Source: Eledone cirrhosa (Eukaryota). Taken from it: a stretch of DNA of 64,000 bases. The notes under the pieces were generated by a model, which saw only the letters and a program-made list of their open reading frames with translations, did not search any database and was not told where the DNA came from. A program made the translations under genes and the position numbers. Positions within the stretch are counted from its first letter, which is position 1, and each line of letters begins with the position of its first letter. Location: NCBI GenBank assembly GCA_964016885.1, contig OZ024742.1, positions 81,220,001 through 81,284,000 of the forward strand. The letters are read 5' to 3'. Of this stretch, positions 23,121-24,546 are shown in pieces.

Positions 23121-24546
23121 AGCATTCCGTCGTCAGGGAAGACTATTCTCATCTAAGTATCCAGGCAAAGCGTGGACTCTGGAAACTTATTAAAACATAA
23201 TTAAGTGGATAGAAAATAGCAAAGCGTGGACTGAATTCCTAGCCATTGAGAAAATCACTGCCTCTGCGTCGGTGGCAAATTCAAAAAGAATCAATCACGT
23301 GACATCGAGGTCAATCAGTGGAAAGTGGTTTGCTAATAAGACAGCGGCCTGCCTGCTACCATAGCAGAAGTCATGGCCAATATTGCTCGACTAATAATTT
23401 GGAGATAATTATAAAGAATTAATATCTAGTAACATATATATACATACAGATGCATATCAATGCTAGCAAATATATAGGTTTTGTCTTAGTAACTTTGTGG
23501 TTCAATGCATGGGGTTGCAGAACAATAATATGAGAGACGTAAAATCAGAAAATTATAAAATTAACTTACTTACTAAAATATCACTTCCAACTAATTAGTT
23601 TCTGGAATGGAATAAATATACTTTCCGAAGAAAACATTGAGAATCATTCCGTCGTCAGGGAAGGCTATTCTCATCTAAGTATCCAGGCAAAGCGTGGACT
23701 CTGGAAACTTATTAAAAAATAATTCAGTGGATAGAAAATAGCAAAGCGTGGACTGAATTCCTAGCCATTGAGAAAATCACTGCCTCCGCGTCGGTGGCAA
23801 ATTCAAAAAGAATCAATCACGTGACATCGAGGTCAATCAGTGGAAAGTGGTTTGCTAATAAGACATCGGCCTGCCTGCTACCATAGCAGCAGTCATGGCC
23901 AATATTGCTCGACAAATAATTTGGAGATAATTATAAAGAATTAATATCTAGTAACATATATATACATACTGATGCATATCAATGCTAGCAAATATAGAGG
24001 TTTTGTCTTCGTAACTTTGTGGTTCAATGCATGGGGTTGCAGAACAATAATATGAGAGACGTAAAATAAGAAAATTATAAAATTAACTTACTTACTAAAA
24101 TATCACTTCCAACTAATTAGTTTCTGGAATGGAATAAATATATTTTCTGAAGAAAACAGAGAATCATTCCGTCGCAGAGGCAGTGATTTTCTCAATGGCA
24201 AGGAATTCAGTCCACGCTTTGCTATTTTCTATCCACTGAATTATTTTTTAATAAGTTTCCAGAGTCCACGCTTTGCCTGGATACTTAGATGAGAATAGTC
24301 TTCCCCGACGACGGAATGATTCTCTGTGTTTTCTTCGGAAAATATATTTATTCCATTCCAGAAAATAATTAGTTGGAAGTGATATTTTAGTAAGTAAGTT
24401 AATTTTATAATTTTCTTATTTTACGTCTGTCATATTATTGTTCTGCAACCCCATGCATTGAACCACAAAGTTACTAAGACAAAACCTATATATTTGCTAG
24501 CTTTGATATGCATCTGTATGTATATATATGTTACTAGATATTAATT
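23121..24546 (-). repeat. HHR array A: two ~522 bp tandem units plus an inverted copy (24173-24546)
   Basis: cattccgtcgtcagggaag at 23123 and 23645, partial at 24165; inverted copy follows; bounded by (GA)n and (TA)n. Confidence 0.9.
23584..23663 (-). ncRNA. Type I hammerhead ribozyme of array A (inverted copy 24300-24379 on + has a CCGACGA core)
   Basis: cttcc-CTGACGA-c-ggaatg...cattcc-a-GAAA-ctaattag-TT^-ggaag. Confidence 0.8.

What the first reader, a model, noticed from the sequence alone, without database searches (positions are those of the whole stretch)
23121..24546. Array A: tandem ~522 bp hammerhead repeats, a candidate retrozyme / circular RNA source
Seen: head-to-tail non-coding units with one HHR each on the minus strand, closed by an inverted copy. 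The inversion junction falls inside the third HHR core (~24173). Known: metazoan non-LTR retrozymes are tandem HHR repeats processed to monomers and circles, and palindromic stem III (ctaattag here) favours dimeric HHRs. Inference: a read-through transcript of an intact family member would yield ~520 nt monomers, mobilised by a PLE RT.
Basis: partly seen in the sequence, partly recalled or inferred. Interest (0 to 1): 0.8.

Follow-up and report, generated by a model that had tools for sequence, protein, structure and literature searches.

The report
Hammerhead repeat with Penelope-type insertion ends
This is a decayed copy of a large family of protein-free, roughly 520-base repeats that carry a hammerhead (self-cutting RNA) motif; copies across the genome end at two fixed points inside TA-repeats, which suggests they were likely pasted in by a Penelope-type retrotransposon enzyme copying their RNA.

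Summary
The array is real: two 522-bp units (97% alike) and a 378-bp inverted arm. Only one of its four hammerhead (HHR) sites is intact, so this locus is probably a dead copy.

The family is large: 10,833 exact HHR cores genome-wide, with several subfamilies and covarying stems. No copy inspected is joined to an ORF. It fits a non-LTR retrozyme.

The insertion shape adds new evidence:
- Copies end in (TA)n at two fixed sites, about 60 and 179 nt 3' of the predicted cut.
- Two-armed insertions use one site at each end: 71 mixed pairs, 1 same-site pair. This is the Penelope 'inverted pLTR + tail' signature, with a 118-nt tail.
- Most family-A arms run through the cut site, which implies a circular or uncut multimeric template.
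- At 24 loci both arms stop at the cut (0 and 4 at two control sites), which is genomic evidence that the ribozyme cut in vivo.
- In sister family B, (GA)n runs appear at one junction only, suggesting RT stuttering.

Not shown: transcription, circles, the partner enzyme.

The parts
23011..23064 (.). (TA)27 left flank, the family's target repeat
23066..23120 (.). (GA)27 run between (TA)n and the left arm; atypical left end, either a cryptic start with stuttering or a later deletion
   Evidence: this junction is unique in the genome
23121..24174 (-). Left arm, about two laps of the unit; RNA sense is the minus strand
23125..23646 (-). Unit 1 (522 bp, non-coding)
23647..24166 (-). Unit 2 (520 bp, 97% to unit 1)
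23121..23140 (-). HHR 5' half only (stem I strand and core)
23585..23662 (-). The only intact type I hammerhead; predicted cut between 23589 and 23588
24107..24174 (-). HHR with intact 3' half; core destroyed by the inversion
24169..24174 (.). Inversion junction, 6-nt microhomology between the arms
24169..24546 (+). Right (inverted) arm, starting at the family's far end site
24301..24378 (+). HHR of the inverted arm, two substitutions at conserved positions
23410..23528 (-). 118-nt 'tail' between the family's far (23410; also 23932) and near (23528; also 24050) end sites
24547..24595 (.). (TA)n right flank
39741..41197 (.). Array B, sister subfamily (about 76% alike), same two-arm design with near and far ends

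Best explanation
Array A is one decayed, two-armed insertion of a non-coding hammerhead repeat family that was likely mobilised by a Penelope-like RT/GIY-YIG protein acting on the repeat's RNA. SHOWN in the genome: copies sit in (TA)n; their outer ends fall at two fixed motif-defined sites 60 and 179 nt 3' of the predicted cut; two-armed copies use one site at each end; arms meet head-to-head at variable points, mostly with short microhomology; units within an insertion share private variants; a minority of insertions have both arms ending at the cut. INFERRED: tandem loci are transcribed on the HHR strand; the HHR cuts and monomers may circularise; a PLE protein (probably a dimer) nicks both strands of (TA)n and primes one cDNA at the near site and the other at the far site of the same RNA; both run 5'-ward, usually through the cut site (circle, nicked circle or uncut multimer) and sometimes off a cleaved 5' end; the two cDNAs are then joined. 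Some long arrays grew later by DNA duplication.
For: 57 of 64 outer ends in 40 family-A loci fall at two sites, 55 of those 57 next to TA-rich flanks. Mixed near/far pairing: 17 of 17 A loci with two canonical ends, 15 of 15 pairs among listed contig-1 junctions, 39 of 40 in other subfamilies. Same end motifs across subfamilies. The layout matches PLE inverted copy plus tail (PMC8557442, passages) and two internal RT start sites with both strands extended by a predicted dimer (PMC11167929, main text). The genome holds RT+GIY-YIG ORFs, 4 of 5 with the CX2-5CxxC motif that PMC8557442 suggests may aid (TA)n targeting; one family ends in (TA)n at two sites downstream of an HHR-like motif. Stem I and II pairs covary. 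Circular fold z -3.25 on the HHR strand, +0.47 antisense. Both arms end at the cut at 24 loci vs 0 and 4 at control sites; 11 of 17 inspected are minimal near+far insertions. Non-majority variants shared within a locus 0.5% vs 0.026% between loci, with no lap-position effect.
Against: No autonomous partner sharing sequence was found among 50 PLE loci, a small sample of 10,597 candidates. One far/far insertion exists (L128). 16 of 40 A loci have a single arm and 7 of 24 two-armed ones have one off-site end. The tail is 118 nt, not the 30-40 nt reported for PLEs. The isolated window HHR folds 3 kcal/mol better in a non-hammerhead shape. In A only 1 of 57 arms ends at the cut, as chance predicts. 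Homogeneous units fit a young linear multimer as well as a circle. Only 1 of 9 predicted Xenopus retrozymes cleaved in vitro in 10.64898/2026.07.22.740005. No target-site duplication can be read inside (TA)n.
Confidence: 0.85

Rival explanations
1. Same element and enzyme, but the template is an uncut linear multimer or a cleaved linear monomer with template jumping; covalent circles play no part.
For: 24 loci end at the cut, so cleaved linear RNA was a template at times; B arms pile up just before the cut, 22 vs 9.6 expected; uncut RNA was the main substrate in vitro in PMC11167929; period-3 structure in L125 shows DNA-level array growth.
Against: 57 A arms pass 100 cut sites with one stop; private variants are fixed in all laps and both arms without positional pattern; comparable families form abundant circles in coral, mussel and axolotl (PMC7229834).
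Confidence: 0.4
2. Plain pLTR debris: 5'-truncated copies of one autonomous PLE whose terminal repeat is this unit.
For: End architecture is that of PLEs; only 40 of 1,694 A candidates were scored, so a rare ORF-linked master could be missed.
Against: Arms lap the same 522-bp unit up to about four times with no ORF; PLE ORF pieces near 5 inspected arrays lie beyond the (TA)n end or far off; no homology to 50 PLE loci except two stray copies.
Confidence: 0.07
3. A LINE enzyme mobilises the RNA by twin priming, as for inverted L1 copies (mechanism recalled, no call).
For: Head-to-head arms with microhomology; LINE-like RT ORFs lie in the window.
Against: No poly(A) or fixed 3' tail; both starts are internal and fixed, although longer TA runs in the unit are not used; L1 second priming is variable in position.
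Confidence: 0.05
4. DNA-level repeat (foldback/MITE or satellite), or an assembly artefact.
For: Inverted ends and TA flanks; some later tandem duplication.
Against: The two ends differ by a fixed 118 nt and the inversion point varies; HHR stems covary; the (TA)n junctions at both sites also appear in short-read contigs, possibly of the same sample.
Confidence: 0.03

Closest known systems
Metazoan non-LTR retrozymes (PMC7229834; 10.64898/2026.07.22.740005)
   Same: Dispersed tandem non-coding units, one type I HHR per unit, GC about 35%, short palindromic stem III, structured HHR strand, PLEs in the same genome.
   Different: Unit 522-571 bp (170-400 nt in PMC7229834; 51-972 bp in the preprint); long two-part stem II; the parts read describe no fixed ends, inverted arms or tail, and PMC7761336 (passage) says no conserved motif points to the mobilising element; no pLTR relative found here; RNA untested.
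Penelope-like elements, endonuclease-bearing clades (PMC8557442; PMC11167929)
   Same: Partial tandems, inverted truncated arm, tail at one end, two internal start sites downstream of an HHR, AT-rich or (TA)n targets.
   Different: No ORF; tail 118 nt rather than 30-40; PMC11167929 saw no difference in start site between strands in vitro and no RNA reads ending at the HHR cut, whereas here the two ends are near-strictly one of each and some insertions end at the cut.
Non-autonomous Chlamys PLEs such as MRC1 (PMC8557442, passage)
   Same: Non-autonomous, multicopy head-to-tail insertions made by PLE machinery.
   Different: Those resemble their partners at the 3' end and that clade lacks canonical HHRs.

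Membership tests
Non-LTR retrozyme | Tandem units each with a type I HHR; at least two consecutive intact motifs | tested here: met
   Met for the family (19 of 40 best-matching A loci); not for this locus (1 intact of 4 positions)
Non-LTR retrozyme | No coding capacity; no LTR/PBS/PPT layout | tested here: met
   Longest frame 59 aa; no unique internal region between repeats; PBS/PPT not searched
Non-LTR retrozyme | Dispersed high copy number, low GC, structured monomer | tested here: met
Non-LTR retrozyme | Ribozyme self-cleaves | tested here: inconclusive
   Indirect only: covariation and 24 insertions ending at the cut; no assay
Non-LTR retrozyme | Expressed as linear and circular monomers | not testable with these tools
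   No RNA run was available to lay
Penelope-like element (autonomous) | RT plus GIY-YIG ORF | tested here: not met
Penelope-like insertion signature | Inverted truncated arm and partial tandems | tested here: met
   24 of 40 A loci two-armed
Penelope-like insertion signature | Two fixed ends giving a tail at one end | tested here: met
   tail 118 nt, longer than the reported 30-40
Penelope-like insertion signature | Sequence kinship to the pLTR of an autonomous PLE | tested here: inconclusive
   None in 50 PLE loci of 10,597 candidates

The most novel reading that the evidence does not exclude
These insertions record the PLE reaction itself: a protein dimer holds one retrozyme RNA (circle or freshly self-cleaved monomer) with its two active sites at two different fixed positions, primes both strands of a cut (TA)n target, rolls through or runs off at the ribozyme cut, and at one start site stutters in telomerase fashion, writing new (GA)n microsatellites into the genome.
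Probability: 0.4. Interest if true: 0.78.

Novelty: new variant of a known kind. Interest (0 to 1): 0.6.

Why it matters
Which enzyme moves animal retrozymes, how PLEs make their tandem/inverted/tail structures, and whether their hammerheads cut in vivo are all stated as open in the papers consulted (PMC7761336, PMC8557442, PMC11167929, the 2026 preprint). A short, ORF-free family with thousands of copies gives a mapped substrate: cut site, two start sites and target. It yields three direct predictions for an in vitro PLE assay: one start site per strand, run-off at the cut, and stuttering at a CUCU start. Seven library searches returned no paper reporting these points for retrozymes; most subscription journals are not searched.

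Tried and rejected
Rfam: no hammerhead hit. Sequencing runs: no RNA holder listed; three runs of unstated kind, held as contigs, from one sample were laid. Partner search: the unit and a profile of 91 natural HHR-plus-200-nt segments against 50 PLE loci found only two stray family copies. Nine PLE-like proteins against 141 array loci hit several flanks; the flanks of four of these (L123, L127, L129, L168) and of L068 were read and are separate insertions; the other hits were not read. Circle versus linear multimer by lap position: no signal in A (p 0.83), borderline in B (p 0.053), so undecided. Excess of arm ends at the cut among best-matching A copies: none. L197 looked like a far/far insertion but is a 1.6-kb inverted duplication. 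The motif script failed on the A set, whose 17 of 17 count is by hand. Duplicate loci were dropped before counts (L005, L017, L024, L030, L119 and overlapping pattern loci; L122 from then on, still counted). Earlier-findings look-ups were empty. Supplements of the bioRxiv preprint were not seen and may describe insertion ends; supplements of the other papers were not opened.

Full report
1. The observation. Two head-to-tail units of 522 and 520 bp (97%) run from 23125 to 24166, followed by a 378-bp inverted arm to 24546, between (TA)27(GA)27 on the left and (TA)n on the right. The unit has no frame over 59 aa. A pattern search finds one complete type I hammerhead, minus strand 23662-23585, with a 49-nt stem II region, stem III of two pairs and a palindromic tetraloop, and a GUU cut at 23589/23588. 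The other three HHR positions are broken: one lacks its 3' half, one loses its core to the inversion, one has two substitutions. Rfam does not detect the motif.

2. The family. The unit has 1,694 candidate matches in the 3-Gb genome; the 40 scored reach 97-100% identity. A sister family B (window 39741-41197, about 76% alike) has 2,652 candidates. The shared HHR core occurs 10,833 times, against 0 for the reversed pattern. Among 126 distinct motifs, the variable stem positions stay paired: stem II pair 2 94% (41% shuffled, four pair types), pair 5 98% (51%), stem I pairs 4 and 5 94% (75%) and 89% (49%). Copies are related, so these are a handful of independent changes. Monomers fold better than shuffles on the HHR strand only (circular z -3.25 and -4.23; antisense +0.47 and -0.78; 20 shuffles). 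19 of 40 A and 9 of 40 B loci hold two intact HHRs in a row; these loci were chosen for full-length matches, and unselected insertions are often 0.1-1.2 kb with arms under one unit. That the host is a cephalopod is my guess from genome size and repeats, not from a call.

3. Insertion anatomy. Of 64 outer ends in 40 A loci, 29 fall at unit position 279-293 and 28 at 400-405, 55 of these 57 beside TA-rich flanks. These sites lie 179 and 60 nt 3' of the cut. Other subfamilies end at the same two motifs although distances vary (50-77 and 165-195 nt), and longer TA runs in the unit are not used, so the sites are set by motif or structure. 24 of 40 A loci have two arms head-to-head, 20 of 24 junctions with 1-13 nt overlap. 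Where both ends are canonical they are one near and one far: 17 of 17, 15 of 15 among 143 listed contig-1 junctions, 39 of 40 in other sets; L128 is far/far. This is the PLE pattern of inverted copy plus tail (PMC8557442, passages), which PMC11167929 (parts 1-2 of 4 read) traced to two internal RT start sites with both target strands extended. The window copy has a far end on the right; its left end is off-site and unique.

4. The template. Units within an insertion share non-majority variants at 0.5% of sites in both arms, against 0.026% between loci, equally for matching and non-matching laps: one homogeneous template per insertion. 57 A arms cross 100 cut sites with one stop, so the template was usually continuous there. 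Yet 24 loci have both arms ending within a few bases of the cut, against 0 and 4 loci for like patterns at two other conserved sites and 7 joined through the natural 12-nt palindrome beside it. Of 17 inspected, 11 are minimal near-plus-far insertions, 4 have a near arm one lap longer, 2 are unclear. I read this as run-off from a ribozyme-made 5' end. RT stalling at the stem or trimming of a palindrome are alternatives, and the controls are only two sites. A circle is plausible but not separable from an uncut multimer. L125 shows a period-3 pattern from later DNA duplication.

5. Stuttering. In family B, 19 of 26 far ends carry a (CT)4-25+ run between element and (TA)n; the same site inside arrays is never expanded (0 of 41), nor are A far ends (0 of 45), which lack the CUCU. 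A near ends have a CUCU-like template and show none (0 of 40), so the effect is site-specific. Reiterative copying at initiation is the simplest reading; insertion into compound repeats or later slippage beside (TA)n is not excluded.

6. The enzyme. GIY-YIG candidates number 10,597 (150 scored). Four of five long ORFs match both RT and GIY-YIG and four of five have the CX2-5CxxC motif that PMC8557442 describes for Neptune/Nematis. Family L061 ends in (TA)n at two sites about 82 and 150 nt past an HHR-like motif with the U3-A8 core of PMC4209133 (passage), and two inverted copies use one of each. None of 50 PLE loci shares sequence with the unit beyond two stray copies, so the partner is unnamed.

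7. Comparison. The family meets the genomic definition of non-LTR retrozymes (PMC7229834, parts 2-4 of 6; 10.64898/2026.07.22.740005, parts 1-3 of 5); RNA criteria are untested. The retrozyme-PLE link is already proposed there on co-occurrence and phylogeny. The insertion-end evidence, the one-of-each rule, cut-site run-off and junction (GA)n runs were not found in seven searches. PMC5680766, PMC7761336, PMC4209133 and PMC8490949 were seen as passages only.

8. Verdict. Real; a dead copy of a retrozyme-type family, very likely PLE-mobilised (0.85). Known kind, with unusually informative insertion ends. Interest 0.6.

Noticed in passing
window 39741-41197: Array B, sister subfamily: near end in (TA)n, far end followed by a long (TC)n then (TA)n; one of three HHR positions intact.
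   Followed up: yes
window 1026-1084 (+); 31858-31920 (+) with 31726-31664 (-); 42346-42460 (+) with 42069-41955 (-): Three more type I HHR-like motif sets of other families, two as inverted pairs; the 31858 type recurs in L066 and L075.
   Followed up: no
window 46345-46493: Inverted pair of a small HHR identical to the one downstream of PLE ORFs in L064, L065, L070, L074.
   Followed up: partly
window 8752-9363, 28540-29205, 36148-36657, 37676-38437: Open frames that look like PLE fragments (resemblance recalled); no Pfam hit.
   Followed up: partly
window 26002-26405 and 42000-42415: Perfect 202-bp-arm palindrome with no spacer, and a second near-perfect palindrome centred near 42210 that carries an HHR pair.
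   Followed up: no
window 22820-23010, 27138-27582: SINE-like repeat in several copies next to the array's left flank.
   Followed up: no
L061:3809-6622 (-): Uninterrupted 938-aa RT + GIY-YIG frame with direct terminal repeats of about 1.1 kb; candidate for an in vitro PLE assay.
   Followed up: partly
L125:2706-7582: Nine-unit B arm with period-3 higher-order similarity (0.6-1.0% between some units three apart).
   Followed up: yes
L121 and L122: Mirror-identical B insertions 0.6 Mb apart on one contig, likely a segmental duplicate.
   Followed up: no
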